IMG/VR virus record: IMGVR_UViG_3300037195_001642
Coordinates: 1-39,568 of that record
DNA: 39,568 bases
Direction: 5' to 3' (one strand)
From: a virus
Lineage: Duplodnaviria; Caudoviricetes
Part shown: positions 9,174-38,689 of the stretch, piece after piece
How the letters are laid out: each line of letters begins with the position of its first letter
Position numbering within the stretch: position 1 is the first letter of the stretch
Program-made: the position numbers and the translations under genes
The notes under the pieces: generated by a model
Databases searched by the model: none
What the model was told of the DNA's origin: nothing
The model's input: only the letters and a program-made list of their open reading frames with translations

Positions 9174-9822
9174 ATTCCTCTTTATAAATTTTCTGTTTCA
9201 ATTCCCAAGCAACCTTTTTATTGCGTAGCGAGTCCCCTTCATATTTAAGCATTAATGGATTCTGGCACCCACCAAACTTTGCACCTTCCTGATTCATTTC
9301 TAAAAGAACAAATTCGTATAAATCTGTTTCCATACTATCTTCTCTATGTGGGCATCTTAGTGCTAAGTCACGGCGATATGCAACTGTGGGATAGGAGATG
9401 TTACATTTGCTATTAAAATCCCACTCATAGGCCTCTTGTCTCCATATTTCTGAAGGATTTTTTGAGCTACAGCAGGTAAGAGCACTATAAAAAACATCCT
9501 TCTCCTCTTCATCAAAAAACTCTGTAATTGCCTGGGATCTATTTTCATCATAGATGTCATTATCACAAATAACGATTATATCACCACTCGCTTCCTGTAC
9601 TAATAGGTTGCGTCCTTTTGCATGACCTTTTCTCTCCTTCATATGAATTACGTTAATGTCGTTTTTATAAAAATCTAAAATTCGTTTTGTGTTATCAGTT
9701 GACCCGTCGTGATAGACTATTATTTCACCTTTCACTTTTTGATTGATTAATGATTCGATACATTGTGCTATTAAATATTGGCCGTTATAGACTGGTAAAC
9801 AGAAACTTAGTTTTAAAGACAT
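9151..9822 (-). CDS. Glycosyltransferase family 2
   Basis: LPVYNG, DGSTDNT, GRN and DND (DxD) motifs. Confidence 0.9.
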   Translation of the reverse strand: MSLKLSFCLPVYNGQYLIAQCIESLINQKVKGEIIVYHDGSTDNTKRILDFYKNDINVIHMKERKGHAKGRNLLVQEASGDIIVICDNDIYDENRSQAITEFFDEEEKDVFYSALTCCSSKNPSEIWRQEAYEWDFNSKCNISYPTVAYRRDLALRCPHREDSMETDLYEFVLLEMNQEGAKFGGCQNPLMLKYEGDSLRNKKVAWELKQKIYKEEYGIEIQI

Positions 9823-11492
9823 CCTAGAATCTCCTCTTTGAATCTTTTTTCACAACACAGATCACGATAATATTCTTTTTTTACCTCGGCTGTTATTTTC
9901 GTTTGCTCTAATGTCGGTCTTGTCTTTGACGCTAGTTCGTATATGGCATTAATAATTTCATTTTTATGGGCCATGTAATCAGTTGGTTCTTCAAATGAAA
10001 GTTTTATATTGGCTATAAATTGGGTATCTGGAACAGACACAATACTATCTCTACCCGCTAACATGAACTGAATTGGCAGTTGTGGAAAACCATCATGTTG
10101 AGTACTCCTAATAATACAGCTACATGAATTTATAAACTCATTCATTTTATCAAAGGGGATCTTACCACAAAACTCCACATTCTTTTTCTTTTTAATTACA
10201 CAGCCATTTTCATCTTTCCAAACTCTACCTACATCGCCAAAGAATTTGAAATCGATATCGGGCATAGCACTTGCTACATCGATAATAATGGGGATATTGG
10301 ACATATTACCTTTTCCTTCTAGCTCGTTCATATTAGGAGTGTCAGAGAAATAGACAGCTACTGTGTATTTTTTAGGGAACCTTTTGGTCACCTTAAACTT
10401 ATTTAATTTGTAGATGGGCGGATAAACAAGGTACGATTCAATATTGATTTCATTTAACTCTTCATGCATCCTTTGCGAATTTACAAAACATATTATATCT
10501 TCAGATCTCAGAGCTTCTTGTATACACTTTAGATCTTCAAATGAATGACAGTTTCGTAATTGCCATACGTCCGTCCCAATAAACTGTACTAATTTTTTTC
10601 CTTTCATCACTGCAAAATGATTATTTAATGCTTGCTGAGGGGCATTAAATAGTCCTACCATAAACGTTGCCTTCCACTGATCTAGATCTAGGTTTATTGG
10701 GTATCTTATATGTTTTGGCGAGTCTGGTTCTGGTCCACAATAATCAGCACCTAAAATCTCTGCACGATGCTTTGCTTGGAGTGGGGCAGAGAAAGTTGTG
10801 ACCACTAATCTCTTAGGTTTTATATTATTTATTTTATAAAATTCAGTTGCCTTTTCGGCGAGTGTTTTACCTTGACTACCAGAAATATTATTTTCTTTTG
10901 GGTGAGCCGTGCTAAAGAAAAATTCATTTATCCATACCCCATAATATAATTTTTTAGATATTCGATAAAATAGATCCCAGTCTTGGAAGAACTTCATTCC
11001 TTCTCGAAAGCCATCAACTTTGTTAAATACACTTCTCTTAACAGGGCTCATTGTATTCACATAATTAAATGTTTCAAGATCTTGAGCATTGAATGGTTTT
11101 GAGGTGAAATTATCTTTCTTGTCGTATCTATAGTTGCCATACACAAAAGACAATGCTGGATCCTCTTCAAATTTTTCGATGCAAATAGAAAAGGTGCCTG
11201 GATATAACTGACAGTCTGAATCAATAAAAAACAAGATTTCGCCATCTGTTTTTTTTGCCCCAAAATTACGTGCAGAGGGAGCACCTGCGTTTATATCCAG
11301 GCAGTGCAATTTAATTTTATTCTCTTTATTTTCCATAAAATGATCGGTGAGGAATGACCAATCATCTTTAGTGTGACCGTCTAAGACTATCGCAATTTCC
11401 CAGTTGTCATAGTCCTGATCCCTAATAGACTCTACACAGTTTACTATTGTCTCTTTATTTTTATAATAGGGAATTACACACGAGATTTTCAT
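9813..11492 (-). CDS. Two-domain glycosyltransferase (GT2 N-terminus plus GT-B-like C-terminus)
   Basis: VIPYYK, SARNFG, FIDSD and QDWDL in the N-terminal half; HDGFPQLPIQFMLAG in the C-terminal half. Confidence 0.85.
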   Translation of the reverse strand: MKISCVIPYYKNKETIVNCVESIRDQDYDNWEIAIVLDGHTKDDWSFLTDHFMENKENKIKLHCLDINAGAPSARNFGAKKTDGEILFFIDSDCQLYPGTFSICIEKFEEDPALSFVYGNYRYDKKDNFTSKPFNAQDLETFNYVNTMSPVKRSVFNKVDGFREGMKFFQDWDLFYRISKKLYYGVWINEFFFSTAHPKENNISGSQGKTLAEKATEFYKINNIKPKRLVVTTFSAPLQAKHRAEILGADYCGPEPDSPKHIRYPINLDLDQWKATFMVGLFNAPQQALNNHFAVMKGKKLVQFIGTDVWQLRNCHSFEDLKCIQEALRSEDIICFVNSQRMHEELNEINIESYLVYPPIYKLNKFKVTKRFPKKYTVAVYFSDTPNMNELEGKGNMSNIPIIIDVASAMPDIDFKFFGDVGRVWKDENGCVIKKKKNVEFCGKIPFDKMNEFINSCSCIIRSTQHDGFPQLPIQFMLAGRDSIVSVPDTQFIANIKLSFEEPTDYMAHKNEIINAIYELASKTRPTLEQTKITAEVKKEYYRDLCCEKRFKEEILGCL

Positions 11493-11508: not shown

Positions 11509-11823
11509 TTATTCACTAGCTTTTTTTAAAATGGGTGTGGCCTCCTCCACTATTTTTTTTTGAATATAATCACCCATAAACTTATTTATTGGATGATATA
11601 CATCTAACGTCTTATTATTTGACAGCTCTTTTTTTGGGTATCTTATATAGAAACCCTCCTTCTTCAAGAACTTGTATATACCTATTCCAGAAAAATAAAA
11701 CGTTGGGATGGATTCACCGTTTATCTTCTCTGCGATTGTGATCGTCGCAAATCCGACAAGCCCTTTCCTTGGCTTTATCGGTGATATATCTATTTCTGTT
11801 ACTTCTAATTTGGACTCGTACAT
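11509..11823 (-). CDS. spoVG: SpoVG-family nucleic-acid-binding protein
   Basis: VTEIDISPIK..GLVGFATITI...IGIY...IRYP...DVYHPIN pattern. Confidence 0.7.
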   Translation of the reverse strand: MYESKLEVTEIDISPIKPRKGLVGFATITIAEKINGESIPTFYFSGIGIYKFLKKEGFYIRYPKKELSNNKTLDVYHPINKFMGDYIQKKIVEEATPILKKASE

Positions 11824-15881: not shown

Positions 15882-16094
15882 CTAACTCCTTTTTTTCTTC
15901 TCATATTTTTTATTTGCAAAATAAGTTTCTAATCTCTGAATCGCTTGTAACTTGGATGTTTCCACTAACATTTTATTTAAGTCCACGCAGTCCTTGGCAA
16001 GACAATTTTTAACTGCATTAAACTGGATTTCACTTTGTTCTTTTAACTCATTAATTAATAACTCCTTAGATATTGACTCCATAGGCCCTCTCAA
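15882..16094 (-). CDS. Small hypothetical protein following the portal
   Basis: About 66-70-aa helical ORF coupled to the portal stop. Confidence 0.6.
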   Translation of the reverse strand: MRGPMESISKELLINELKEQSEIQFNAVKNCLAKDCVDLNKMLVETSKLQAIQRLETYFANKKYEKKKRS

Positions 16095-18183
16095 GAATCG
16101 CTTTTTGTTTTATAATTTCAATATCGGAATCTGCTTTCGCTTCGTATTTTTCTGCTGCCTTGGTAATCTCCCGTTGCATATCTGCATCTTTTTTATTTTC
16201 ATCTAACTGAGTGATCATCATTCGCATTTGATCTTCTTCTTGTAATCGTCTGCTCTCTTGTTGCTGTTGCTGTTGCTGCATTTCTTGTTCTGCTTCCTGA
16301 ACCTCAGCCTCTGAATAGAATAGACCTTCGCTATCCTCCTTTATCCCAAACGATCTTAAGAACCTTTCAGTTAGCTCTCGATAATCTATGCGTTTCGCTA
16401 ATGGTGGTAATACCTGTGACAATTCAAACAATGATCGATATCCTACTTGGTGTGCTTGCTCATTATTTAGCTCTACAGTTCCTAATACACTAATGATAGG
16501 TCTAAAGACCATGTCCTTCATGGAAAAGGTTGGTACAAGCTCAATCTGGCCTGTCTCAGGGTTTTGCTGTTCTTCTACTAAGCCTTTGTTTTGTAATTCC
16601 TCCATATTCCAGACTTTTAATAGATCTTCTTCTGTTTTGAATTGGAGGTTCCTTTCAAATATCATTTCTAGGAAAGGCTTGATCTCTCGTTCTATTGTCG
16701 AGACAATAATCTCATTGAGGGGAATATCATTTTGTTGGATGACCATTGCAGTACCACTAGCAGTTTTAGGAACTAATCGTGAATCGGTCGAACCTTCTTG
16801 GACAGGTGATTGTGACCATAACTTATCGAGATCCCTTTCAATAAAAACAATGCTCTCGGATGTTACGTTGCCAAGGTAAGGATTTAATATTGGAGCCAAT
16901 CCACCTTGACCTTGTCCCTTTACTAACCCATTCGGTCGCCACGTCTTATCCCACTGGATATTCATATCTGTATTCTGATACCACATAGGACTAATAGACC
17001 GAGTCTTTGCATCAACCATTTGGGCTCTAGCTGCGTTTAATTCTTGTATTAGGTTATATGATTTTATTACGTTTGACTCCCCGTAAAAACAACCTGAAAT
17101 GGGTTTATATTTACCCGCAATGAAAGGACGGTTATATCTAATATGTCGGAAAGGCGACTTTTCTTTGCGGATTATGACATGCCCATTCGCTATAGTGACA
17201 ACGCATTCCTGTGGTTTACCGTCGTCGTCAATATCATACAGACCCCAACATTCTAGGATATCGATTATACCCGTCTTCTTCTGGTCCTTTAACTTTTTTT
17301 CATATGCTTGCTGAGACACTTCGCCCAGCCCTAGGTTCTGTAGATACGCAGTCTGCTCTGTCGTTAAACCGTTCCCCTGTAACTCAATTAAGTTGAGGTT
17401 ATAATACGTTCCCTTTTCCTCGTATCTAACTCGCTCTTTTTCAGTTTCTTCAAATATACCTATCTCATTATCTTCCCAATTAGATTCCTCAATATCAGAT
17501 TCAATAACCTTTTCTTTTCGTTTTGCATCTGCTCTTAAATCTTCCATGCTGATGGTAGTTGAATGAATATTTGCGAGAGAGTCGTATAGCCGTTCTTTAG
17601 ATAAATCAGTGTAAAATTCTTCTAATAGTAATGGCCTATAGTAAGTATTGTCTTTTACTACTACTTCTTCTTCTTCTTCATCATCAAAATAGCTGAACTC
17701 TTTTACTTCATATTCATTGGTTATCTTTGCAATAGAGGTACCGAGTATTATTTTATTTTTTTGGTTATTTTTAAATTCCTCAACAAACCCAATCTCATTG
17801 ATTTGATATTCAAATATAAATTTGTTCCAAAGCTCGACTATCTTTTCATCGAGGGTACGAGCGACCTTGTCTTGTGGTGACTCTATTCTCCCAAAGGGAT
17901 AGGAACTAAATAATGATCGATTGATCCGTGATGTAACTCCGTTGACTTTAGAGTCTATTATTGGGACACGAATATTGGATCGGCCTTCGTATACCTTATC
18001 TATTTTATTATTATTGAAATATAAATCTCTAGCGTTTCGCCATTTCCCTTCCCATTCACCACGATCATCTTCGTATTTCTTTTTTAGTTCTAAAAAATAG
18101 TTTAGACACTCCCTATCGTATTGAGTGTCTACATTAAATTCGTTATCAAACTCATCGTTCTGATCAGTTGTATCGTAGGCCAA
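16066..18183 (-). CDS. Portal protein (podovirus/P22-like)
   Basis: About 705 aa after terL; KIILGTSIAK, RPFIAG...FYGES, KTASGT and Gln-rich C-terminal barrel; likely start is TTG at 18183 (GGAG upstream) rather than 18210. Confidence 0.88.
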   Translation of the reverse strand: MAYDTTDQNDEFDNEFNVDTQYDRECLNYFLELKKKYEDDRGEWEGKWRNARDLYFNNNKIDKVYEGRSNIRVPIIDSKVNGVTSRINRSLFSSYPFGRIESPQDKVARTLDEKIVELWNKFIFEYQINEIGFVEEFKNNQKNKIILGTSIAKITNEYEVKEFSYFDDEEEEEVVVKDNTYYRPLLLEEFYTDLSKERLYDSLANIHSTTISMEDLRADAKRKEKVIESDIEESNWEDNEIGIFEETEKERVRYEEKGTYYNLNLIELQGNGLTTEQTAYLQNLGLGEVSQQAYEKKLKDQKKTGIIDILECWGLYDIDDDGKPQECVVTIANGHVIIRKEKSPFRHIRYNRPFIAGKYKPISGCFYGESNVIKSYNLIQELNAARAQMVDAKTRSISPMWYQNTDMNIQWDKTWRPNGLVKGQGQGGLAPILNPYLGNVTSESIVFIERDLDKLWSQSPVQEGSTDSRLVPKTASGTAMVIQQNDIPLNEIIVSTIEREIKPFLEMIFERNLQFKTEEDLLKVWNMEELQNKGLVEEQQNPETGQIELVPTFSMKDMVFRPIISVLGTVELNNEQAHQVGYRSLFELSQVLPPLAKRIDYRELTERFLRSFGIKEDSEGLFYSEAEVQEAEQEMQQQQQQQESRRLQEEDQMRMMITQLDENKKDADMQREITKAAEKYEAKADSDIEIIKQKAILERAYGVNI
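16837..16909. repeat. 73-bp exact repeat, inverted copy at 29317-29389
   Basis: Reverse complement is identical over 73 nt; both copies encode QGGLAPILNPYLGNVTSESIVFIE. Confidence 0.97.
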
Positions 18184-18225
18184 TTGGTGACTCCAGCAAA
18201 AAAGATTCAAATGTTTAACTGTTTA

Positions 18226-18309
18226 ACTTGGATTGAGAAGGTAGGACACATAAAGTCTGTTGCATCTACTCTAGAACACACAACAACGTCCTACCTTCTC
18301 AATCCAAGT
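18226..18309. repeat. Perfect 22-bp inverted repeat (hairpin) in the portal leader
   Basis: acttggattgagaaggtaggac (18226-18247) and gtcctaccttctcaatccaagt (18288-18309). Confidence 0.95.
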
Positions 18310-18348
18310 AATGTCACTTCTTGGTGCTTAAATTTCTTGGTGCTTAAA

Positions 18349-18369
18349 TTATAACAAAACTTGTCATAA
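18349..18369. promoter_or_regulatory. Palindromic operator with minus-strand extended -10 upstream of the portal
   Basis: ttataacaa-aac-ttgtcataa; TGTTATAAT on the minus strand. Confidence 0.7.
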
Positions 18370-18373
18370 AAAT

Positions 18374-19846
18374 CTAGTAGCCAATACCCTCGTAAATCTC
18401 TGTTTCTTGATAATGATATTTATCTTCTTTGTATTTGGTTAAACGTTTAATACATTCGTATTTCAGGATATCGATAAAGTGATCGTCTTTTTTTTTAGGT
18501 CGATTCACCATTTCCTTGCGTTCGCTTAAACTCTCTGAAACGTAGCTATCCCACACATACGTATTCATTTGTAAATTGAGACCTTTCAGATCTTTAAATA
18601 AATATAAACTGGGTTTCTTTTTGATTGTACCGTCTTGAGTCTTAACAATTTTTAATCTGCTTTTGATTGCTCCAAGTCCTAAGTTATTATCCTTCGTACA
18701 CAAAATAGTATTGATCCCATTTCTTTGGAACTCCCGTCTAACAGTATGTACATTCGTTTGATCTTCATCGGGATGAACGTTTATGACATCGGGCTTTACA
18801 GATGAGGTATCTATTTGACACCAGTCAATTTGAATGAACTTATTCATTTGTTTGCGTGAGCTTTTTATTAACAAACTAAAATCACGTATTAACATCGATT
18901 CCATTGGGGCAGATATTTCTTCAACAACGTATAAAATATCATTGTCATTGTCATACAAAAATCGAAGCCAGTGATGAGGCGTTCTTTCGTGGGGGTCTAT
19001 TCCTTCAGTAATTTTCCACCTATTTGGATTTTTTACTACAAGCTCAACATAATCAAATCTATCTATTCTATGATCGTCGTTATAAGTTTTGAAAATTCGC
19101 CCCTCTTTGATGTGAGGTTCCCCTTCCCATCTCGATTGAATCTCATCTTCATCTAATGAGTCGAGCAATTGTTTCTTTGCGTCATCTGAAATGAACGGGT
19201 TCATAAACGGGGTGAGTACACACGTCTTATGGTTAGGGTTATCAGATTTCCAAAATTTTGTCACGAGCCTCGTAAATCCCTCTAATGCTGTAAATGTTAA
19301 GATCGCAATCCCTTTTCTGTCGGCAAGCCGAACTATCGATTCTTGATATATCGAGTTCGAACACTCTTCATCGAGCCAAATTGCGTCGAGCGTATCGCCC
19401 TGATATGCATCAGATCCTTGCTCAAATGTTTTAAAATATATCACAGACTTATTTTTTGATATAATTGTGTTGTTTTTCCAGCCTCGAACTAAATTATATT
19501 CACCATACTCAATATCTTTTTTACGTAATAAGTCATATATCTTTTTCTGCTGAACTTTAACTGAAAGGTCGGATAATGTAGCAACCCATATCCTCTTATC
19601 GTGGTAATCTCTCATGATCTCAGCTATCACCCCAGCCCCTAGCTCAGTCTTGCCGGAGCGATTACCACCGAAGATAACAAACACATTTGGCCCGTGGCCT
19701 GTCTTGAACCGCTCTTGTATTGCAAGACGCATCTGGTTTTGTTCTGCGTATAGCTCCCATTCCATATAGTCCAATCTATTATCAATCCTATCTTGTTGTA
19801 ATTTTTTTAGTTGATTGTGAAGATAACTTATTTTTTTTTGATCCAT
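18374..19846 (-). CDS. terL: Terminase large subunit
   Basis: Walker A GGNRSGKT, Walker B IWLDEE, LTFT coupling motif, GIDP and DDHFID nuclease motifs. Confidence 0.95.
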   Translation of the reverse strand: MDQKKISYLHNQLKKLQQDRIDNRLDYMEWELYAEQNQMRLAIQERFKTGHGPNVFVIFGGNRSGKTELGAGVIAEIMRDYHDKRIWVATLSDLSVKVQQKKIYDLLRKKDIEYGEYNLVRGWKNNTIISKNKSVIYFKTFEQGSDAYQGDTLDAIWLDEECSNSIYQESIVRLADRKGIAILTFTALEGFTRLVTKFWKSDNPNHKTCVLTPFMNPFISDDAKKQLLDSLDEDEIQSRWEGEPHIKEGRIFKTYNDDHRIDRFDYVELVVKNPNRWKITEGIDPHERTPHHWLRFLYDNDNDILYVVEEISAPMESMLIRDFSLLIKSSRKQMNKFIQIDWCQIDTSSVKPDVINVHPDEDQTNVHTVRREFQRNGINTILCTKDNNLGLGAIKSRLKIVKTQDGTIKKKPSLYLFKDLKGLNLQMNTYVWDSYVSESLSERKEMVNRPKKKDDHFIDILKYECIKRLTKYKEDKYHYQETEIYEGIGY

Positions 19847-21552: not shown

Positions 21553-21575
21553 ATAAAAAATTAAGGAGATTAAAA

Positions 21576-21944
21576 ATGACTAATGAAGAAGAAATGACTA
21601 ATGAAGAAGAAATAATAGAAAAACTTGAATACATGTGTTCAAAAGAAGAACTTGAGTACATGTGTTCAAAATATGCTAGAGACATAGAAAACCTCAAGGG
21701 AGATGGAGATATAGAGGAATTTTTTAACAACGATGTGCTTGAAACCCGATACGTAGTAGACGGATATAAAAACTACATTGGAGCTGAGTTATGCGTAGCG
21801 TACGGCGGGCCAACAGTATGGATTAACACGATAGATCAACAGATTAAGGGTTACTGGGGCTATACTACGGTCTATAAACACTTTAGGGGTGACGTGCTAG
21901 ACGACTACTTATGTGAAAATTGGAAAAATAAAGATATGAATTGA
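21576..21944 (+). CDS. Hypothetical early protein (YIGAE..AYGGPTVWINT family)
   Basis: SD AAGGAG; paralogous to the C-terminus of 22926-23987; two internal tandem duplications. Confidence 0.8.
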   Translation: MTNEEEMTNEEEIIEKLEYMCSKEELEYMCSKYARDIENLKGDGDIEEFFNNDVLETRYVVDGYKNYIGAELCVAYGGPTVWINTIDQQIKGYWGYTTVYKHFRGDVLDDYLCENWKNKDMN

Positions 21945-22041: not shown

Positions 22042-22443
22042 ATGAATGATAAAAAATATTATATACAAGTTCTTGAAGAAGGAGGATTTTTATATCAAAA
22101 CACGATACAATATTATTACCCGATTAAAGATGATGGTACGATCGAACCGCTTCAATCGACCCGCATTGACAAATTAACAAACCGCAACGTTATAATAACT
22201 AATAAACAATCGGGTTACGGATATGGTTGGGATGGATTCACCGGTTGCAAGCAAAACAATAAAAGTTGCGGTGAGTTATGCGGTCTAAATATAAATGAAT
22301 TATACCAATGTATATCATGTGGCGGACAGTTTCCAGAATGGGAAGATGCATGTATGGAAGGTGGGGAACGTATTTGTCAAATTTGCTGGGATGATGATTC
22401 TGTGTGTGATAATTCACCGCTTGAAATAAAAGGAGATAAATGA
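22042..22443 (+). CDS. Hypothetical Cys-rich (zinc-finger-like) protein
   Basis: CISC...CQIC pairs; SD AAGGAG. Confidence 0.7.
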   Translation: MNDKKYYIQVLEEGGFLYQNTIQYYYPIKDDGTIEPLQSTRIDKLTNRNVIITNKQSGYGYGWDGFTGCKQNNKSCGELCGLNINELYQCISCGGQFPEWEDACMEGGERICQICWDDDSVCDNSPLEIKGDK

Positions 22444-22446
22444 AAA

Positions 22447-22815
22447 ATGAACACAAACAAAAAAAAATATTCGTTTTGGTACCTATGGGAAGGAGGCGAA
22501 CAAGATGGGCAGATGTTCCCAGCGGACTATGTAGTAGGTGGTGAAAAAACAAATTTATGTAAAATAGAGTGGTTCACGCAAGATGATATGCTCACCCATT
22601 TTACTGAATTAGTCGATTATTATAAATATGACTCAAGTAATTCCGCCCCAGAGGGCTGTGCAATAGGCGTATTTGTCACAGAATACAATAAGGGAGATGA
22701 ATTGTGTTACAACAGTATCTTCCCGAAATGGCGTTGTATCGGGGAAATGAAAGAGGTATGCACGGCTATATGGGATAGGGAGGACTGGAATTTTAGGTAT
22801 CCCCTCCCATACTAA
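22447..22815 (+). CDS. Hypothetical protein
   Basis: 122-aa ORF with SD. Confidence 0.7.
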   Translation: MNTNKKKYSFWYLWEGGEQDGQMFPADYVVGGEKTNLCKIEWFTQDDMLTHFTELVDYYKYDSSNSAPEGCAIGVFVTEYNKGDELCYNSIFPKWRCIGEMKEVCTAIWDREDWNFRYPLPY

Positions 22816-22905
22816 AAATTTTAAATAGACTTCGGGGAATTGTTGGTCTGGACACTCAAAATAGGGCAGATGTCTATTTAGAATCTTTAGTATGGGAGGG
22901 GATAC
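22797..22905. repeat. 34-bp inverted repeat (32/34) with 41-nt loop
   Basis: 22797-22830 versus reverse complement of 22872-22905. Confidence 0.92.
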
Positions 22906-22925
22906 ATAAAAAAGGAGGATTAAAA

Positions 22926-24213: not shown

Positions 24214-24247
24214 TCTAACAAAGTATAAAACTATAAAAAGATAAACC

Positions 24248-24276
24248 TTGACACACTATTACTGGTAAGTTATCAT
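24248..24276 (+). promoter_or_regulatory. Sigma70-type promoter, probably producing a leaderless mRNA
   Basis: TTGACA-17 nt-TATCAT; ATG only 6 nt after the -10 and no SD. Confidence 0.7.
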
Positions 24277-24282
24277 TCTATT

Positions 24283-24483
24283 ATGATTAAAACTGACGAA
24301 TTTATCAAGAGCTGTTATTGCGAGATGGAAAAGTCAAACGTATCTATTCGGCAACTTTATTTCAAATTAGTGAAGCTAGGATACGAAAGAACCTATGCTA
24401 CACTTTGTAATACAATGAAGTGTGAGTATCGACCAGATGGCGAAACTATTTTAGCATTAAATGCATATTTTAAAATTTTGTAG
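24283..24483 (+). CDS. Cro/XRE-like small regulator
   Basis: 66 aa; SIRQL...YATLCN..YRPDGETILALNAYF resembles XRE HTH. Confidence 0.6.
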   Translation: MIKTDEFIKSCYCEMEKSNVSIRQLYFKLVKLGYERTYATLCNTMKCEYRPDGETILALNAYFKIL

Positions 24484-24539
24484 GAGCTTTTTTGCGTATT
24501 TATATACTCAGTGCTAATAGGATGGAGGTGACGAAATAA

Positions 24540-24824
24540 ATGACAAATGATTACGAGAGGATGCTGACCCAAAAAATGATGGTTGAGCAGCTCCAAGAGA
24601 TTAATAGTAAATTGGATCTAATATTTAAATTTCATGATTCGATTAAGATTTCTCAGAACGAAGCAGCCAAAATATTAAGTGCATCATTTAGAACGATCCA
24701 ACATTACGAGAAAGAAGGTTTACTTACCAATGAATCGGGAAAGGAGGGAAGAAAAGAGTTTAGTTTAAAAAATGTATTCGATATATATTACATACGAAGT
24801 TTAAAAAAAGGAAAAGTAAAATGA
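24540..24824 (+). CDS. MerR-type HTH / excisionase-like protein
   Basis: ISQNEAAKILSASFRTIQHYEKEGLL; SD GGAGGTGA. Confidence 0.75.
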   Translation: MTNDYERMLTQKMMVEQLQEINSKLDLIFKFHDSIKISQNEAAKILSASFRTIQHYEKEGLLTNESGKEGRKEFSLKNVFDIYYIRSLKKGKVK

Positions 24825-25051
24825 AAAAAGAGAAAGAAAAAACGCCCTGCTCGAACAAGGCGTTTCGGTCAAATAAATCAGTTCATGATTCAGTTAAGAA
24901 GTCTATCAGATTGAAGCGTGTGTGTCAAAATAGTGGTATTCCACAAACGCCAAAATATGATTGGGAAGCACCTCTGTGGGCAGGACATGAGGACCAAATT
25001 ATTGATGCTTTTGAAAGATTTTATGAAGAAGAAGGAGCCTGCCATGCATGA
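24821..25051 (+). CDS. Hypothetical protein
   Basis: 76-aa ORF, ATGA-type coupling on both sides. Confidence 0.55.
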   Translation: MKKEKEKTPCSNKAFRSNKSVHDSVKKSIRLKRVCQNSGIPQTPKYDWEAPLWAGHEDQIIDAFERFYEEEGACHA

Positions 25052-25520
25052 AGAAGAAAAGGATAAATATGGGAACCCCATACGCCTAAATATTGAAGAA
25101 TATACGGTGGTCGAAGAGTCTTACGATGAAATTATGGATTTTGAAAACGCTATATATAAAAAAATAGGGTATGAGATGCCAGAGCATCATGACCATTTTT
25201 TAAGAGGCATGAAAGTTGCTTTTGAGTTTATGATGGGAGAATATGACACGCTCGATAATGTTTTATCTTTATGGTGCGACGAAGGTTATGATGAAATGAG
25301 GTGGGGACACAGAAAAACATTGCCATCTATTACAACCCTTAGAGATAGATTGATTAGATCTAATAAATATAATTTTTTATTGGAGAGCAAAATTAGAGAG
25401 CGTTTAAAAGAGAACGACGATTGGTATTCAAAATATGAAAAGGATAGCCCTACAATGAGGCTCCACAAACCTCATTATACGCATGACGAAATTAAAGAAC
25501 AGATTGGAGATAAAACATGA
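25044..25520 (+). CDS. Hypothetical protein
   Basis: Likely start MHEEEK at 25044 after AAGGAG (track ORF 24918-25520). Confidence 0.7.
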   Translation: MHEEEKDKYGNPIRLNIEEYTVVEESYDEIMDFENAIYKKIGYEMPEHHDHFLRGMKVAFEFMMGEYDTLDNVLSLWCDEGYDEMRWGHRKTLPSITTLRDRLIRSNKYNFLLESKIRERLKENDDWYSKYEKDSPTMRLHKPHYTHDEIKEQIGDKT

Positions 25521-26122
25521 TAAAAGAGAAAAACATATATAAGAAGTTAACCCTTATTCAAAATGAATTGAAGGTTCCTAAGTCCAACGTTAATAATTTT
25601 GGTAAATATTCCTATCGAAGTATTGAGGATATAGAAGCCAAATTAAAGCCGTTATTACTGGCACATAATTGTACAGTCCATATCATTGATGAAATAGTTC
25701 AAATAGGGGATCGGTATTATTTGAAAGCAACTGCAATTTTCATTGATATTGAAACTGGTGAGTCCATAGAGAACACTGGATTTGCTCGTGAGGCTTTAGA
25801 AAAGAAGGGAATGGACATGGCACAATTAACTGGAGCATGTTCCTCTTATTCTCGCAAATATAGCTTAGGTGGGTTATTTCTAATTGATGATACAACCGAC
25901 CAGGATTCAATGGACAATACAAGCACCACGTTAAAAGAGAAGTCTACTGAGGAGGTAGAATTTGATTTTAAAGAGAATGAATTCAAAGAAAAGCCAATAA
26001 TAAAAACATGTGCTTGTGGGGGTACTATTAAGGGGCCTTGGCCAACTTGCTATAACTGTAAGATTGCCAAAGATGAAAATGAATTGGCTCCTGCACCAAT
26101 GGATGGCAGCTATTCGTATTAA
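25517..26122 (+). CDS. erf: ERF-family single-strand annealing protein with C-terminal Cys4 motif
   Basis: IQNELKVPKS..N.FGKYSYRS.EDI, AQLTGACSSYSRKYSLGGLFLIDD..DQD; CACG...CYNC. Confidence 0.92.
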   Translation: MIKEKNIYKKLTLIQNELKVPKSNVNNFGKYSYRSIEDIEAKLKPLLLAHNCTVHIIDEIVQIGDRYYLKATAIFIDIETGESIENTGFAREALEKKGMDMAQLTGACSSYSRKYSLGGLFLIDDTTDQDSMDNTSTTLKEKSTEEVEFDFKENEFKEKPIIKTCACGGTIKGPWPTCYNCKIAKDENELAPAPMDGSYSY

Positions 26123-26152
26123 TATAAAAAAATTAAACTTAAGGGAAAGATA

Positions 26153-26302
26153 ATGCAAATTTACAACTTTATATTGGGAATGTGGGACTCTTTTTGGTCT
26201 ATTCCTACTCATAATCAGATCATCTTACTAATAGCCGTGTCGTATATAGTCATAGGGCCATTTTATAGTTATAAGATCATGAATCAGAGGCAAGATAAGT
26301 GA
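26153..26302 (+). CDS. 49-aa membrane peptide
   Basis: MQIYNFILGMWDSFW...IILLIAVSYIVIGPFY; stop overlaps the next start (GTGA). Confidence 0.5.
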   Translation: MQIYNFILGMWDSFWSIPTHNQIILLIAVSYIVIGPFYSYKIMNQRQDK

Positions 26303-27288
26303 AACCATTTATAATGATAGAGAAGCATATAATGGAAAAACCGTGGGCTAGAGACCCACGGAATTTTTACGTCTACTATTACCTTCGATCTAACGCAAAC
26401 TATACATCTGAAGAGAGTAATGACATTCTAATTAAGCGTGGACAAATACTGACCTCTCTAAGGGAAATATCAAAAAAAACATATATCCCAAAAAACACTG
26501 TTGATAGAATTTTAAAAACACTTGTAAAGCACCATGAAATTTCGATAGATAGAAATGGTAACTCTACTATCATTACGATATTGAATTATGAAATTGATGA
26601 CAAAAAAGAAGGGGTTGGGACACCTTTCGGGACACCTGAAATTGAAGAAAGTGGGACACCCTTACAGTCTGATTTCCAGGCTCAAATTGATGATAAAATG
26701 ATAGAAAAAACAGACAATGTGGGACACCCTAAAACAGACAATGTGGGACACCTTTCGGGACACCTTCCTAATGTAACTCTCTTAAGTTACTATCTCTTAA
26801 CTAATATAAATAATATAACAAACACTGCGTGTGTGCGTGATAAGGCTTCTTTCAAAAAAAGTCAAGAAAAAAAATATTTATGGACGTTTACAATTCCACC
26901 AGAAGAGCTTACGGGACCGATCCAACACGATATCGGAATTTATCGAAGAGAGACCCTAAAGAACATGTTTAAAAACTGGCCAATAGGTAAAAGGCCCAGT
27001 GTAAGAATCGAATTTATTAATCAAATTGAGTCTAAAATTGAATTGAGATCCTACGAGATCATTAATTTATTTGAAAAGAGTTTTGTTAAAACACATAATC
27101 GAATATTAGAATCCTTAAAATTAAAGTGGAATAATGAGCCCGAAGTTCTGGTTGATGAAAATCAAATGAAAAAACAAATTGCTCAGTTTTGGCCAAGCTT
27201 TGAAAATTATTTAAAAGATCCGTTTAAGGACCTATCCGATGAATCGTCTGAGAGGCTCCAAATTTTAGTTGTAACGTCTAATTCATAA
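26299..27288 (+). CDS. Replication initiator / replisome organizer (lambda O-like)
   Basis: IKRGQILTSLREIS..TVDRILK..TIITILNY winged-HTH followed by an iteron-bearing linker. Confidence 0.85.
   Translation: MKPFIMIEKHIMEKPWARDPRNFYVYYYLRSNANYTSEESNDILIKRGQILTSLREISKKTYIPKNTVDRILKTLVKHHEISIDRNGNSTIITILNYEIDDKKEGVGTPFGTPEIEESGTPLQSDFQAQIDDKMIEKTDNVGHPKTDNVGHLSGHLPNVTLLSYYLLTNINNITNTACVRDKASFKKSQEKKYLWTFTIPPEELTGPIQHDIGIYRRETLKNMFKNWPIGKRPSVRIEFINQIESKIELRSYEIINLFEKSFVKTHNRILESLKLKWNNEPEVLVDENQMKKQIAQFWPSFENYLKDPFKDLSDESSERLQILVVTSNS
26617..26764. repeat. Replication origin iterons (GGGACACC x6)
   Basis: GGGACACC at 26617, 26629, 26653, 26721, 26745 and 26757 inside the initiator gene. Confidence 0.8.
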
Positions 27289-27305
27289 AGGAGGAATGTA
27301 ACGCT

Positions 27306-27791
27306 ATGGATTATTTTCAAAAGTGGGAAGAGCGAGAAAATAAGGCTGATCAACAAATTAAAACTGTTTATGAGCAACAAACTTGTCCGATAACCCAAAT
27401 ATTGGTAGAATTAAAAAATCACGTAGGGTCAAGAATGACCGGGGTCACAATGAAAACTTGGGTAGATGCTATAAAAAAAGAAGCTATTGAACTTGAAGAA
27501 TTAGAGATATTTTTAGAGGACTTTAAGTCAAATAAAATTGACAATAAAAAATTTAAGTTGAGTATTTTTAATTTGATAGAATACATCAATAAAAAGCGAC
27601 AATCTAAAGAAAAAAAGTTTTATAATAGTACCCAAACAGGAAAGACATATGAGGCTAGTGAAAGGGGGTATGAACAAGAGAAAATAGACATAGATAATAT
27701 GCCAATGGGTGATAGAGATATTCACAATTGGAACAGGTGGTTTAAGGGGTCTAAAATATTAACGAATAGTGGGAGATCTTGTGATGGATGA
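27306..27791 (+). CDS. Hypothetical protein (possible helicase loader/inhibitor by position)
   Basis: Follows the initiator; SD AAGGAGG. Confidence 0.6.
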   Translation: MDYFQKWEERENKADQQIKTVYEQQTCPITQILVELKNHVGSRMTGVTMKTWVDAIKKEAIELEELEIFLEDFKSNKIDNKKFKLSIFNLIEYINKKRQSKEKKFYNSTQTGKTYEASERGYEQEKIDIDNMPMGDRDIHNWNRWFKGSKILTNSGRSCDG

Positions 27792-28158
27792 TTTTGATAT
27801 GGACAATTTATTAGATTGGCAACAGAAATGGTTAACGAGGTCATCTAGACCGAATCAAATACCAAATTGGAATATAAATATTGATATGGAAGATGCTGTT
27901 AGGTATCCAAACGGTGATCCAGTTCTAGTTTTAAAACAAGATCAATATAATCATATATTTCGATTGCCGTATGATTTAATTAGCCTAAACACTCATTTAA
28001 AAATGGAAGAGTTGGTTGATTTTGAAGGCGGAAAGTGTCTTTTAGAAGAAGAAGAAACTTTTGAGTTCAATGAATTTGAATTCCAAATGTTCTATAATGA
28101 AAACTATACAAATGCCGAACCCAATATCCAAAGTAAAACATCGTACGTCTGGAGTTGA
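27769..28158 (+). CDS. Hypothetical acidic protein
   Basis: About 125-aa ORF in operon. Confidence 0.6.
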   Translation: MGDLVMDDFDMDNLLDWQQKWLTRSSRPNQIPNWNINIDMEDAVRYPNGDPVLVLKQDQYNHIFRLPYDLISLNTHLKMEELVDFEGGKCLLEEEETFEFNEFEFQMFYNENYTNAEPNIQSKTSYVWS

Positions 28159-28516: not shown

Positions 28517-28611
28517 TTGTTTTGCCATTTTTTTTGTATCAAAAAGACCTCTGTTTAAATTAAAGGTAACTGTTATAATTAGATCATCAACTACGAGGAG
28601 ATGAATAAAAA

Positions 28612-29070
28612 ATGACAAATATAGATGCAATGACAAATATAGATGCTCTGAATGATGGTTTAACCCCATTACACCTGGCTGCTATGCAAGGAGATCTTCC
28701 ACGAGTAAAAAGTCTTTTGACCAAAACATGTAGGGGTGAGGACTCTTATTTATTGGATAATGAAGGGGCAACGCCACTACATTATGCGTCTCTTAATGGA
28801 CATTTAGACGTCGTTAAAGCAATCTACGAAAAATTTTCAGGGGATGACCCTAATCCAGGTGATTATGACGGAGAAACACCGCTAAACTATGCTTCTCTTA
28901 ATGGACACGGTGAAATTGTTACCTTGATTACAGAGATGCAGAAGTTATTCAATAATCAAAAATCTAAGATTTGTAAGAAATGTCAGCGAAAATTAAGAAA
29001 AAGAAATATATTCAATGAGTTACAAAAAGGAGGTTGTAAAGGAGGTTGTGATGAATCTATTAAAATGTGA
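28612..29070 (+). CDS. Ankyrin-repeat protein
   Basis: Three repeats: GLTPLHLAA, GATPLHYASLNGH, GETPLNYASLNGH; own TGTTATAAT (28571) and SD. Confidence 0.93.
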   Translation: MTNIDAMTNIDALNDGLTPLHLAAMQGDLPRVKSLLTKTCRGEDSYLLDNEGATPLHYASLNGHLDVVKAIYEKFSGDDPNPGDYDGETPLNYASLNGHGEIVTLITEMQKLFNNQKSKICKKCQRKLRKRNIFNELQKGGCKGGCDESIKM

Positions 29071-29584
29071 ATACATTTATGGGAATACGGCTATGGATTT
29101 CGGAAAGAAATTAAAAAAAATGAGGGCCGATAGGGGGCTTTATCAACGAGATATTGCACGATTTTTGAATTTAAGGGGTAACTCCTATATAGCAGGCGTA
29201 GAGTTAAATAATCAATCAGCACCAGTTTATTCTAAATTAAAAAAAATCTTGGATTACTTTGCTACCATCAAACGAGTGCCGGAGTATGAGGTATTGGATG
29301 TCCTTGAAATGGCAGCTCAAGGTGGATTGGCTCCAATATTAAATCCTTACCTTGGCAACGTAACATCCGAGAGCATTGTTTTTATTGAAGTCTATCGGAA
29401 AGACGGACCACGACGATCTGAAGATGATAGGGAACTGATGGATGCCATTAAAGAATATCGCAAAAAGTGTATGCAGTCTGGTGATCTAAATCCTGAATTA
29501 ATAGCTATTGTTGATGAACTGGCAGATCTTCCTATAGAGAAATATGACTCGGTACTTCGTATTATTAAGGATCTAAAAAATTGA
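29051..29584 (+). CDS. XRE-family HTH regulator carrying a portal-derived insertion
   Basis: FGKKLKKMRADRGLYQRDIA...YIAGVE; paralog of 29652-30074; start after duplicated SD aaaggagg. Confidence 0.85.
   Translation: MNLLKCEYIYGNTAMDFGKKLKKMRADRGLYQRDIARFLNLRGNSYIAGVELNNQSAPVYSKLKKILDYFATIKRVPEYEVLDVLEMAAQGGLAPILNPYLGNVTSESIVFIEVYRKDGPRRSEDDRELMDAIKEYRKKCMQSGDLNPELIAIVDELADLPIEKYDSVLRIIKDLKN
29317..29389. repeat. 73-bp exact inverted copy of portal 16837-16909
   Basis: Direct base-by-base comparison. Confidence 0.97.
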
Positions 29585-32210: not shown

Positions 32211-32701
32211 TATAAAGGTATATTAATGAGGAGTGTTGCTTCCCCATTTAAAATGGTAGCTGTTTTTGATTTAAAGGGTGACGGATAATTATATACTGCA
32301 GTTTTAAATGGATAATAAAGAAATTTTATTTCAGCAAAGCCTATCTTGGTTTCAAAGCCCATGATAAAAGCATATGTATCTATAATATAAGAAGGTCTAT
32401 CTGTTACATCTACTCTAGAACACACATATGCAAGACCTCCCGTAAAATTTAGTTTTAGTTGTTCGGGTCTTTTATTTCTGAATAAAAGATGTAATTTCCA
32501 ACCCTCTTCTTTTACCTTACCTAAAGCTATATTAGTGGAATCGTTATAACTATAATAAGCAACACCAAAATGTGTTGTTTCTGTGTTAAATGAAATTCCA
32601 CCATACAGATCCTCGTAAAATAACCCCAGATCTATATCAGTAGCAAAAACATTTAAAGAAAATAAGAATACTAAAAATAGCGACAGAATTAGTTTCATCA
32701 C
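32210..32701 (-). CDS. Exported protein, possibly a small outer-membrane beta-barrel
   Basis: Signal peptide MKLILSLFLVFLFSLNVFA followed by alternating aromatic/Gly beta-strands. Confidence 0.6.
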   Translation of the reverse strand: MMKLILSLFLVFLFSLNVFATDIDLGLFYEDLYGGISFNTETTHFGVAYYSYNDSTNIALGKVKEEGWKLHLLFRNKRPEQLKLNFTGGLAYVCSRVDVTDRPSYIIDTYAFIMGFETKIGFAEIKFLYYPFKTAVYNYPSPFKSKTATILNGEATLLINIPL

Positions 32702-35023: not shown

Positions 35024-35935
35024 TTAATCTCCTAAATTATAAATTAATACATGAAGTTTGTTAGGGGTAGAGAACCTATACATCTGTGAGAAATCTGAAA
35101 TGATTCTAATTTCTAGGTCACTCGCAAGAGTAGAAATAGGCCATACTTGGATTGAGTAGGTAGGACACATAAAATCATTGATTAGTTCTGTTCCCCCCGC
35201 ACCATTACCCGTAACACCTGCTGGCCCAAAGAAATTGGCAAATACCATCGGATTTAAAAAGTTTGTGGTTACAGAGTTATCTAAGTCCATTTTAATATAC
35301 TTCTTCCCGCCAGCTATACCAGCAGCACTATTCCACGTACCTATTGCAAAATTAGAAAGATTATTTGAACTCTCTGTGGTTATAGCTTCGTTTGCCTTTG
35401 TTGCTAATAGCGTTGTTTCATTGCCAGCACTTATTTGGTCTAGTGGAAAAGCAGTATTATAATCGTCTATTGCATCTTGGAGTGATACCCCACCAACTGC
35501 CCATAGATCAAATGTAGCTGCATATTGGATTTTTTCCCAATGATATGTAAAAAGTTCGTAGCTAGTACTCACTAAACTAGCAGCCATAGTATCCATTATC
35601 GTCTGACATGTATTATTAAAACCAAACGTCAATATAGCTTCTGCGACTGGATAAAGAGGTGCTCCCATACTAGCCAATACATTTTGACTACCATCAAAAG
35701 CAACACTTCCACATGCAGCACCTGTTGTGGAGTCAATAAAATTTATGTTTTGGGCATCTTCTAACAGTGTATTTGTACTCGCATTTCCCGCTAGATCAGA
35801 GGTTGCTTGATTAATATTTAAGTCTTTTGTCCCGTCACTCAAACCGTCAACAAAATCGTCCACATTACCATTTAAGCGATCTGCGGTAATTGTATCGTCA
35901 GTTACCCATGTATGTGATTGTGTTATATATCCCAT
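35024..35935 (-). CDS. Tail fibre/spike protein 2
   Basis: SHTW..RLN..DGLSDGTKDLN..GNAST..FDGS N-terminus. Confidence 0.75.
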   Translation of the reverse strand: MGYITQSHTWVTDDTITADRLNGNVDDFVDGLSDGTKDLNINQATSDLAGNASTNTLLEDAQNINFIDSTTGAACGSVAFDGSQNVLASMGAPLYPVAEAILTFGFNNTCQTIMDTMAASLVSTSYELFTYHWEKIQYAATFDLWAVGGVSLQDAIDDYNTAFPLDQISAGNETTLLATKANEAITTESSNNLSNFAIGTWNSAAGIAGGKKYIKMDLDNSVTTNFLNPMVFANFFGPAGVTGNGAGGTELINDFMCPTYSIQVWPISTLASDLEIRIISDFSQMYRFSTPNKLHVLIYNLGD

Positions 35936-36947: not shown

Positions 36948-38689
36948 TATTCTTCCTCTAGATCTTCCATGATATATTCTCTTTCTAAAATATTTTCTAT
37001 TTCTGGTGCAGCTTTCTTTAGTTTTGGTGCAACTTTCTTTAGATCTTTCTTTAGTAAGAGCTTTCTTTTTGGTTTTGGTTTTATTCCACTAGCCTCTTGT
37101 CTAGCCTTTTTTATACCCTTTTTTCTTTCCCGTTCAAGACTTCCTTTAACTACTTTTTTCCTAATAGGACGTAGAAAAGCATCTACCGTACTCTTTACTA
37201 TTTCTGTCTTACGACCACCATAAGGAAGGGTTTCCAAAATACCTGGATTTGTACCAAAATGTTTGTTCCATGATGTCCATCCAGAAATTGTATCAAACTC
37301 TTTTAAGGCTCTCCTAGTAAACTTATTAGGATATTCTTTTAAGACTCTTACTATTTCAGTTACTTCTTGGTCTGCAAGGTTCTTCAAAGCAAATCTTTCT
37401 CCTCCACCTAATTTTTCCAACTCCGTTGTTTTTTTCCCAAAAGCTTTTAGTTTATTGTGAAGTCCTTTTGCTGCTTCATCATATTCTTTAGAAACAGCCC
37501 CTAATTTTTTTCTGAATAGTCTTCTAACTACTTGCATCCCCCTATCTCTTACCGATCCTCTTTTTATAGCAGCGTAATCAATCGCTCCATCTAGTGCCTT
37601 TATATAATTATATAGCTCTAAAGGAATCATTTTTATTGGTTCAGGTGGAAATAATGGTAGTCCCTTCTCAGTAACCATTTCATCTAGAACACCACGAGGC
37701 GGTCTTTTTTTAAGTTCTTTAATAATTTTGCCCAAGAGTGGTTTTGATGTAAACTCGGTAACTTTTCCTGTTTTATCTAATAATGCCAAATCATCGAGTT
37801 GAGGTAATATTTCGTCTAATAATTCACGAGTATCAAATGTAACATCTTCTGGTATTTTCTCTATCGCCTTCTTCATTTTTTTAGCTTCATTTTTATATAC
37901 ATCGTTCATTGAATCCCTAAAATCATCCCCAACTTTTTTTATATATTCAGGGTCATTTAATTTCTTTATAGTTAAAGTTTTATTGCCTAAAGTAGAAGCA
38001 TTTTCAAACATCTGCTCTTTTACGGTTTTGAATGCGGCATTTGCTACCTCATCACCTAATTGCTGATCTTCTAATATTTCTTTAGCTATTTTTTTATCTG
38101 TTGCTATTTTATCTGTTGCTATTTCTTTTTCCGATTTTCTTAATAGCTTTTTAGCACCTGATAAATCCGGAGGTGCTTCCCAATCATAAACGCCTTTTGG
38201 CGTTTTTGGCGTTTTAGGTGCATACTTATCCACTATCTTAGCAAGTCTAGACAAACCTTCCTTAGCCGTAGCCTTAATGGTTTCTCTTTTTGCCATTCCA
38301 CGAGCTATTGGTCCTACCATTCTAAATGCTGCTGCACCAGGAGCTATTGGAGAAAAATATTCACCTGCCTTAGCTGCAACATGAGCTGCACGTGATTGAG
38401 GATAGTGTTTTGATTTCCCTGTTCGTTCAGCTACATCAACCCCTAAAAGACGTCCTAATTCATCTTGTGTGCGTTGGGCACCTTCTGATATTGAAAATGC
38501 AATGTCCTTTCCTGTTGCTAGTGCCTCCCCTGCAGCAATAGCCATAATTTCTTCTGTAGTTCCTTTTACATTAGTTTTATATTCTGGATATTTTTCTAAT
38601 ACCCTTGTAGCAAGCTTTAGAGTTTCTACTTCATCATACTCAGGATATTTTTCTTTTATACGTTCACCAAATTCAGTTAAAGTAACCAT
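36947..38689 (-). CDS. Probable large ejection/internal virion protein
   Basis: 580 aa, helical and Lys-rich; twin KYPEY N-terminal motif; lies between pilot-like and fibre genes. Confidence 0.65.
   Translation of the reverse strand: MVTLTEFGERIKEKYPEYDEVETLKLATRVLEKYPEYKTNVKGTTEEIMAIAAGEALATGKDIAFSISEGAQRTQDELGRLLGVDVAERTGKSKHYPQSRAAHVAAKAGEYFSPIAPGAAAFRMVGPIARGMAKRETIKATAKEGLSRLAKIVDKYAPKTPKTPKGVYDWEAPPDLSGAKKLLRKSEKEIATDKIATDKKIAKEILEDQQLGDEVANAAFKTVKEQMFENASTLGNKTLTIKKLNDPEYIKKVGDDFRDSMNDVYKNEAKKMKKAIEKIPEDVTFDTRELLDEILPQLDDLALLDKTGKVTEFTSKPLLGKIIKELKKRPPRGVLDEMVTEKGLPLFPPEPIKMIPLELYNYIKALDGAIDYAAIKRGSVRDRGMQVVRRLFRKKLGAVSKEYDEAAKGLHNKLKAFGKKTTELEKLGGGERFALKNLADQEVTEIVRVLKEYPNKFTRRALKEFDTISGWTSWNKHFGTNPGILETLPYGGRKTEIVKSTVDAFLRPIRKKVVKGSLERERKKGIKKARQEASGIKPKPKRKLLLKKDLKKVAPKLKKAAPEIENILEREYIMEDLEEE

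What the first reader, a model, noticed from the sequence alone, without database searches (positions are those of the whole stretch)
18212..18349. Portal leader hairpin assembled from fragments of two distant phage genes
Seen: 18226-18254 matches tail-fibre gene bases 35145-35173 at 28/29. After one base, 18256-18282 matches exported-protein gene bases 32400-32426 at 26/27. Then 18288-18309 is a perfect inverted copy of the first 22 nt. It is flanked by tandem duplications (tgtttaac x2 at 18212; ttcttggtgcttaaat x2 at 18318) and lies just downstream of a minus-strand operator/extended -10 (18349). Inference: the transcript would carry one arm antisense to the tail-fibre mRNA, sequestered in a stem. 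This could be a guide-like or regulatory RNA built from captured self sequence, or a multi-jump template-switching scar.
Basis: partly seen in the sequence, partly recalled or inferred. Interest (0 to 1): 0.85.

Follow-up and report, generated by a model that had tools for sequence, protein, structure and literature searches.

The report
Phage hairpin stitched from own genes
An 83-base hairpin built from copied bits of two distant genes sits just before the portal gene of one marine phage lineage and is missing from its close relatives; it is likely a DNA-repair scar, one of several such self-copies in this genome, rather than a guide or antisense RNA.

Summary
Relatives about 97.5% identical, in two other studies, lack the 83-base insert and one copy of the 16-mer. 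None of 31 scanned terminase-portal junctions of distant relatives has such a stem. The two pieces join in frame through a shared 3-base microhomology, and the right arm is a fold-back copy of the already joined pieces. The same genome holds further self-copies in unrelated genes, including an 89-base, mostly portal-derived in-frame insert in a repressor-like gene that the relatives lack. Five related genomes and 23 loci hold none. The antisense arm is locked in the stem (unpaired probability 0.006), both targets are mid-gene, and no array, Cas, Nop or reverse-transcriptase gene was found. Verdict: a likely multi-jump template-switch scar from a recurrent, lineage-specific process whose enzyme is unidentified. 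A side effect on portal mRNA is possible but untested. The scan noted a similar lineage-only hairpin on other DNA (e1-6065117; not checked here).

The parts
18227..18309 (.). Lineage-specific 83-base insertion (the hairpin)
   Evidence: Runs X8 and X10 join 18226 to 18334 with 8 letters between; X4 and X7 contigs span it with 0 differences
18226..18254 (+). Copy of donor 1 (35145-35173); left arm of the stem
   Evidence: 28/29
18254..18257 (+). Junction of the two pieces; both donors offer ATC here (one Asp codon on the minus strand), and the copy differs at 18255
   Evidence: X7 contig shows the joint 35173 to 32400 with one letter between
18256..18282 (+). Copy of donor 2 (32400-32426); mostly in the loop
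   Evidence: 26/27; its variant codon (Ala) is seen in sibling protein P0056
18281..18309 (+). Fold-back copy: reverse complement of 18226-18262 lacking 1 and 7 bases; includes the perfect 22-base arm 18288-18309
   Evidence: alignment 29/29 with two gaps
18212..18226 (+). Left flank with the 8-base tandem; present before the insertion
   Evidence: X8 contig matches 18137-18226 with 0 differences
18318..18333 (+). Lineage-specific extra copy of a 16-mer
18348..18367 (-). Extended -10 match overlapping an operator-like palindrome; likely portal promoter (inferred)
   Evidence: not listed
16066..18183 (-). Portal gene; likely TTG start at 18183 with GGAG at 18195-18192
   Evidence: PHROG and Pfam SU10_portal; homologue N-termini
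18374..19846 (-). Large terminase gene upstream of the leader
35145..35173 (-). Donor 1, codons 255-264 of the 303-codon gene 35024-35935 in the tail-gene block
32400..32426 (-). Donor 2, codons 91-100 of the 162-codon gene 32210-32698; a site that varies between sibling alleles
29320..29408 (+). Sister event: 89-base insert in an HTH repressor-like gene, mostly a copy of portal 16837-16909, in frame (net 29 residues)
   Evidence: absent in X8 and X10 and in P0070-P0072; native to portal
28921..28953 (+). Sister event: exact 33-base copy of adaptor gene 4182-4214 in the ankyrin gene
   Evidence: segment conserved in the G001 adaptor
22060..22246 (+). Sister events: 36-base and 21-base copies of the SpoVG-like gene (11645-11680, 11702-11722) inside orphan gene 22042-22443
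   Evidence: region absent in X8 and X10
38171..38215 (-). Sister event: 45-base in-frame insert with a 19-base exact copy of 24956-24974, a 6-base inverted piece and a 9-base tandem
   Evidence: absent in G001; anatomy

Best explanation
The hairpin is a lineage-specific 83-base insertion, made of two distant pieces of the phage's own genes plus a fold-back copy of them, that likely arose in one error-prone repair or template-switching event and likely has no guide function. Inferred steps: a free 3' end in the terminase-portal spacer primed on 1-3 shared bases in the tail-block gene, on another genome copy or a co-infecting sibling, and copied 29 bases; it jumped about 2.77 kb through a shared ATC into the 162-codon gene and copied 27 bases; it folded back on a 2-base match, copied its own new strand with two skips, and rejoined the spacer, with a 16-base duplication nearby. 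The same process likely made the other self-copies in this genome. The enzyme is not identified; host polymerase helped by the phage's Erf annealing protein is my working guess. If the predicted portal promoter is active, the stem would sit in the portal 5' leader clear of the ribosome site, so it would be tolerated and could at most alter mRNA stability or RNase III cleavage.
For: Shown: absent in 2 of the 2 relative-bearing runs laid on it (X8, X10; about 97.5% identical, 34 differences in 1370 bases) and present unchanged in X4, X7, L007 and L008. The right arm equals the reverse complement of 18226-18262 minus 1 and 7 bases, and all three differences from the window's donors are mirrored in it, so it was copied after the pieces were joined. 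The junction lies on a shared ATC and is in frame. The Ala variant of piece 2 is a real sibling allele, and X8 has small deletions at 32393-32400 (table cut). Strict scan: 7 distant near-exact pairs in this genome (5 gene pieces, 2 operator-like pairs), 0 in 5 of 5 related whole records, 0 in 23 other loci of 352,301 bases. Sister inserts are polarised by relatives; one shows the same signature of distant piece, inverted piece and tandem. An Erf-family gene is present. Templated insertions and snap-back synthesis are known products of microhomology-mediated repair (PMC2943611 abstract; 10.1101/2022.03.14.484287 passages).
Against: No enzyme was found: no polymerase, Ku, LigD or reverse-transcriptase family hit among 47 ORFs, and no Ku or RT in two candidate host genomes of unknown completeness. 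The arms have not diverged from each other, which fits recent origin but also selection to keep the stem. The insert is carried by all window-like samples examined, so it is not visibly harmful and could be useful. The two-skip reading of the 5-base linker rests on few bases. Exact short tandem duplications are not enriched here (7, against 6, 6, 1, 2 and 2 in five relatives). The control loci are partial, which lowers their chance of holding distant pairs. The Phe variant of piece 1 is in 0 of 4 cluster members, so its origin is open.
Confidence: 0.76

Rival explanations
1. Same origin, but since kept by selection as a cis-acting mRNA element: a 22-pair perfect stem (about 32 pairs with G-U and one bulge) between terminase and portal that is cut by RNase III or shields the portal mRNA 5' end and so tunes portal-to-terminase output.
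For: Minus-strand fold -55.2 kcal/mol, z -6.5; an idealised E. coli RNase III substrate is a 22-bp helix (PMC3867540 figure legend); the stem lies between a predicted promoter and the ribosome site, whose predicted accessibility hardly changes (0.31 with the stem, 0.37 without); a second lineage-specific long hairpin (22791-22911) also precedes a gene.
Against: Close relatives do without it; 0 of 31 scanned junctions have a perfect inverted repeat over 14 bases; no compensatory changes exist to show selection; any fold-back copy yields such a stem.
Confidence: 0.13
2. A guide-like or antisense RNA built from captured self sequence that represses or targets the tail-block gene, the 162-codon gene, or sibling phages.
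For: The pieces are spacer-sized (27-29 bases); the 5' arm of a minus-strand transcript would pair with tail-gene mRNA at -35.4 kcal/mol; donor 2 differs between sibling alleles right at the copied edge, as escape might; an unchecked scan note reports a similar hairpin in another marine phage.
Against: The arm's unpaired probability is 0.006 and cis pairing is stronger (-39.2); both targets are mid-gene, not at ribosome sites; single unit, no repeats or array; no Cas, Nop, Argonaute or IS110-type hit in 47 ORFs; no credible Rfam match; not conserved; sister copies sit inside coding frames where they cannot plausibly be guides.
Confidence: 0.06
3. A miniature inverted-repeat mobile element or a piece brought in whole from another replicon.
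For: Terminal inverted repeats of 22 bases; absent from relatives as a clean insertion.
Confidence: 0.03
4. An assembly or amplification chimera.
For: Fold-back chimeras are a recalled artefact of strand-displacement amplification; only contigs, no raw reads, were available; all carriers come from two studies that may be one campaign.
Against: Identical in X4 and X7 (different samples; X7 not marked as a possible source) and in two further assemblies; the copy differs from both donors, and one difference matches a sibling allele; the HTH protein with its insert is recorded on 11 contigs.
Confidence: 0.02

Closest known systems
[quoted passage not shown]
   Same: Insertion copied from templates, short microhomologies at the junctions, fold-back synthesis.
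   Different: Described in Drosophila and dependent on POLQ; here a phage, with donors 14-17 kb from the site and no such enzyme identified.
G2L4 reverse transcriptase MMEJ and snap-back synthesis in bacteria (10.1101/2022.03.14.484287, passages seen)
   Same: A bacterial route to snap-back copying from short 3' microhomologies, including discontinuous products.
   Different: No RT family hit in the phage or in two candidate host genomes; an analogy only.
Replication template switching that creates hairpins (Loytynoja and Goldman 2017, PMC5453318, abstract seen; de novo miRNA preprint 10.1101/2023.04.19.537475, listing only)
   Same: One event yields a perfect stem without compensatory evolution.
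   Different: That model uses nearby templates; here two distant jumps precede the local fold-back.
Relaxed recombination by Rad52-like phage recombinases including Erf (De Paepe 2014, PMC3945230, passages seen)
   Same: A temperate phage with an Erf gene exchanging DNA over short homology.
   Different: That work shows exchange between homologous stretches; here pieces land in unrelated sites with 1-5 shared bases and a fold-back, which annealing alone does not explain.
TIGR-Tas (PMC12045711, abstract and outline seen) and phage mini-CRISPR arrays (recalled)
   Same: Phage-borne stem-loop holding spacer-sized pieces.
   Different: No array, no repeats, no Nop or Cas protein; the two pieces match two different genes, not both strands of one target.

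Membership tests
Templated-insertion / template-switch scar (SD-MMEJ-like) | Insert absent from the ancestral allele | tested here: met
   runs X8 and X10
Templated-insertion / template-switch scar (SD-MMEJ-like) | Inserted bases traceable to templates | tested here: met
   two donors plus a fold-back account for the 83 bases
Templated-insertion / template-switch scar (SD-MMEJ-like) | Microhomology at junctions | tested here: inconclusive
   3 bases between the pieces (one changed in the copy), 2 at the fold-back, 1-3 at the outer ends; too short to be significant alone
Templated-insertion / template-switch scar (SD-MMEJ-like) | Dependence on a Pol theta-like or G2L4-like enzyme | tested here: inconclusive
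   none found in the phage or in two uncertain, possibly incomplete hosts
CRISPR mini-array | Spacers separated by direct repeats | tested here: not met
CRISPR mini-array | Cas proteins in phage or host | tested here: inconclusive
   none in 47 ORFs; Cas1 in 0 of 2 candidate hosts of unknown completeness
TIGR-Tas | Tandem array of about 36-base units | tested here: not met
   single unit
TIGR-Tas | Nop-domain Tas protein | tested here: not met
   PF01798: no match in the record
Trans-acting antisense RNA | Accessible pairing region | tested here: not met
   unpaired probability 0.006 (equilibrium prediction)
Trans-acting antisense RNA | Expressed as a discrete RNA | not testable with these tools
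   no RNA holder listed
RNase III processing hairpin | About two helical turns of duplex in a transcript | tested here: met
   22 perfect pairs, predicted (PMC3867540)
RNase III processing hairpin | Cleavage in vivo | not testable with these tools
   needs RNA end mapping
Intrinsic terminator | Stem followed by a U run | tested here: not met
   0 terminator-like sites in 18000-18600
MITE | Several copies with target-site duplication | tested here: not met
Diversity-generating retroelement | RT gene and adenine-specific template/variable repeat pair | tested here: not met
   no RT; the three changes fall at adenines of opposite strands; definition recalled

The most novel reading that the evidence does not exclude
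This phage lineage, or its host, runs an undescribed insertion-prone repair pathway, polymerase-theta-like in its products but without Ku, LigD or a reverse transcriptase, that repeatedly pastes 20-80-base pieces of the phage's own genes into new sites and folds some into perfect hairpins; the portal-leader hairpin would be a ready-made regulatory RNA caught at birth, and the repressor-like gene with 29 new residues its protein-level counterpart.
Probability: 0.15. Interest if true: 0.8.

Novelty: new variant of a known kind. Interest (0 to 1): 0.42.

Why it matters
As a single hairpin it is likely a neutral scar. What deserves attention is the pattern: one natural phage lineage carries several short self-templated insertions that close and distant relatives lack, with fold-back and microhomology signatures best known from eukaryotic alternative end joining. 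If general, this is a route by which phages gain new peptide segments, orphan genes and perfect RNA stems in one step. It also warns that a hairpin holding a self-gene piece is not by itself evidence of an RNA-guided system.

Tried and rejected
The portal alignment found no relative in bacterial or archaeal genomes. Cultured phages gave only weak terminase matches (best 26.5%). Rfam gave three sub-threshold matches, none at this site. No tRNA gene. No RNA holder was listed, which says nothing on expression. The letters of relatives at donor positions 35157 and 32406 were not among the rows shown (259 rows not shown), so the donor alleles rest on proteins. X8-X10 contigs barely cover 37026-38828, so the insert in gene 36947 is polarised by G001 only. 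Whether the ankyrin-gene copy is absent from relatives is inferred from two opposite-strand joints. A source for the last 19 bases of the HTH insert was not found. A sense-strand bias of the copies was considered as a sign of RNA templates and dropped: the numbers are too small, and direct and inverted copies are about equal. The in-frame fusion gives a 24-codon frame with no obvious ribosome site and was rejected as a gene. Tandem-duplication excess was tested and not found. Atlas searches for two unknown ORFs gave no usable hit. The host clue is weak, so searches are not used as proof of absence. Searches for a phage precedent returned none that describes this in the listings; the library lacks most subscription papers and no supplements were opened.

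Full report
Setting. The window is a whole 39.4-kb temperate phage genome with a 162-base terminal overlap, SU10-type portal and adaptor, terminase, integrase, Erf recombinase, two HTH regulators and an ankyrin gene (47 of 101 listed ORFs were scanned, chosen as the long non-nested ones). All listed holders are marine or aquatic metagenomes. The feature lies between the large terminase (18374-19846) and portal genes on the minus strand. Homologues begin at the TTG at 18183, so the stem ends 43 bases before the start and 31 before the GGAG.

Observation. All three matches are as described. Sixty Markov simulations gave on average 0.0 distant pairs with 25 or more matches, against 6 observed. 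Contigs of runs X4 and X7 span the feature with no difference, an X7 contig shows the junction between the two pieces, and assemblies L007 and L008 carry it. X4 may be the source of the window, X7 is not so marked, and the carriers come from two studies that may be one campaign. Only contigs were available.

It is a lineage-specific insertion. Of the four runs laid, two (X8 and X10, from two other studies) hold a relative about 97.5% identical over the portal gene (34 differences in 1370 bases). Each has one contig that joins 18226 to 18334 with 8 letters between, 7 of which match 18310-18317. The relatives therefore lack 83 bases (18227-18309) and one copy of the 16-mer, but already have most of the left tandem. 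Among 57 loci of distant relatives, 36 had both genes in order and 31 junctions were short enough to scan; their longest perfect inverted repeat was 4-10 bases in 30 and 14 in one (many are near-duplicates).

Anatomy. Donor 1 is codons 255-264 of a 303-codon gene in the tail block, and donor 2 is codons 91-100 of a 162-codon gene. The right-hand 29 bases (18281-18309) align without mismatch to the reverse complement of 18226-18262 with gaps of 1 and 7 bases. This accounts for the 5-base linker and shows that the three differences from the window's donors (18238, 18255, 18262) are all mirrored, so the arm was copied from the joined pieces. The change at 18262 gives Ala, as in sibling protein P0056 (1 of 3 cluster members), and X8 has one-base deletions at 32393-32400 (table cut), so the template may have been a sibling or earlier allele. 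The change at 18238 would give Phe, seen in 0 of 4 members. The joined pair could also be the junction of an earlier 2.77-kb duplication or circle; the sequence cannot separate these.

It is one of several. A strict scan (25 or more bases, 90% or more identity, over 2 kb apart, low complexity masked) found 7 pairs in this genome, five gene pieces and two operator-like pairs, against 0 in 5 of 5 related whole records and 0 in 23 further loci totalling 352,301 bases (those loci are partial). The 76-base portal piece is native to portal and forms most of an 89-base in-frame insert in an HTH gene that X8, X10 and three 148-residue relatives lack. The 33-base adaptor piece and the 36-base SpoVG-like piece are conserved in G001's orthologues, so the ankyrin gene and gene 22042 are the recipients. 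Gene 22042 has no relative outside its own cluster among 1.84 billion representatives apart from one weak hit and is skipped in X8 and X10. Gene 36947 has a 45-base insert relative to G001 holding a 19-base exact copy of 24956-24974, a 6-base inverted piece and a 9-base tandem, shared by 3 of 3 cluster members. Against a general instability, exact tandem duplications of 10 or more bases are not more common here than in G001 or G002.

Function. A minus-strand transcript from the extended -10 at 18356-18348 would fold into a long stem (-55.2 kcal/mol, z -6.5). The antisense arm would be unpaired with probability 0.006, pairs better in cis (-39.2) than with tail mRNA (-35.4), and the ribosome site is about equally accessible with and without the stem. 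No terminator-like site and no plus-strand promoter-like site were listed in 18000-18600. No repeat array, Rfam family, or Cas, Nop, Argonaute or RT hit was found. A 22-pair helix matches the idealised RNase III substrate length (PMC3867540, passages), so an effect on portal mRNA is possible but untested.

Mechanism and precedent. Templated insertions with created microhomology are the products of SD-MMEJ in Drosophila (PMC2943611, abstract). A bacterial RT performs snap-back synthesis (10.1101/2022.03.14.484287, passages). Template switching makes perfect hairpins in one step (PMC5453318, abstract). Erf-type recombinases work on short or diverged homology (PMC3945230, passages). TIGR-Tas needs an array and a Nop protein (PMC12045711, abstract and outline). 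Searches listed no paper describing this pattern in a phage; the library is incomplete and no supplements were read. The enzyme is not identified. A 38-base attP-like stretch at 31712-31749 matches tRNA-Arg(ACG) exactly in 2 genomes of the collection, both labelled Pelagibacterales, with similarity running a few bases beyond the tRNA end. These showed no Cas1, Ku, MutS-I or RT match, but the host link is weak and their completeness is not given.

Earlier notes. The scan held nothing on this genome or look-alikes. One note, e1-6065117, describes a lineage-only hairpin with a 30-base piece of a self gene in a marine crAss-like phage; I did not check it and had reached my reading before seeing it.

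Verdict. Real, and best read as a multi-jump templated insertion from a recurrent, lineage-specific process (0.76). A cis effect kept by selection gets 0.13, a guide or antisense RNA 0.06, a mobile element 0.03 and an artefact 0.02. New variant of a known kind; interest 0.42, carried mainly by the genome-wide pattern.

Noticed in passing
window 24224-29038: Relative to X8/X9 (opposite-strand joints 24219-28483 and 24224-29039) and to G001's gene order, the replication block appears inverted and the ankyrin gene added, which would separate the HTH repressor-like genes from their divergent partner.
   Followed up: partly
window 29015-29584: HTH repressor-like protein with a 29-residue insert that is mostly portal sequence in portal's own frame; its effect on regulation is unknown.
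   Followed up: yes
window 22791-22911: A second long hairpin (121 bases, -56.6 kcal/mol, 20-base perfect core) just before gene 22926; it lies in a block absent from X8 and X10, and its loop has no self-match of 13 or more bases.
   Followed up: partly
window 22042-22443: Orphan Cys-rich gene holding two pieces (36 sense, 21 antisense) of the SpoVG-like gene; possibly partly built de novo.
   Followed up: partly
window 7475, 11887, 18351, 21302, 31592: A recurring palindrome (ATAACAA-N3-TTGTTAT type) that overlaps extended -10 matches; likely one phage regulator's operator.
   Followed up: partly
window 31703-31764: attP-like 3' half of a tRNA-Arg gene downstream of the integrase, with exact 38-base matches in two Pelagibacterales-labelled genomes.
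   Followed up: partly
window 21574-21613, 28611-28646, 29026-29049: Exact 12-18-base tandem duplications at or next to start codons of three genes.
   Followed up: no
window 38700-36947 gene; P0079: A 4-residue indel near residue 78-81 of gene 36947 is polymorphic among 3 cluster members, suggesting ongoing short duplications or deletions.
   Followed up: no
window 7501-11492: A block of three glycosyltransferases and a methyltransferase within the virion module, conserved in G001-G005.
   Followed up: no
window 32114-32215: A 32-base tandem of 3.2 copies at the end of gene 32210; X8 and X9 show a joint there, so the copy number may vary.
   Followed up: no
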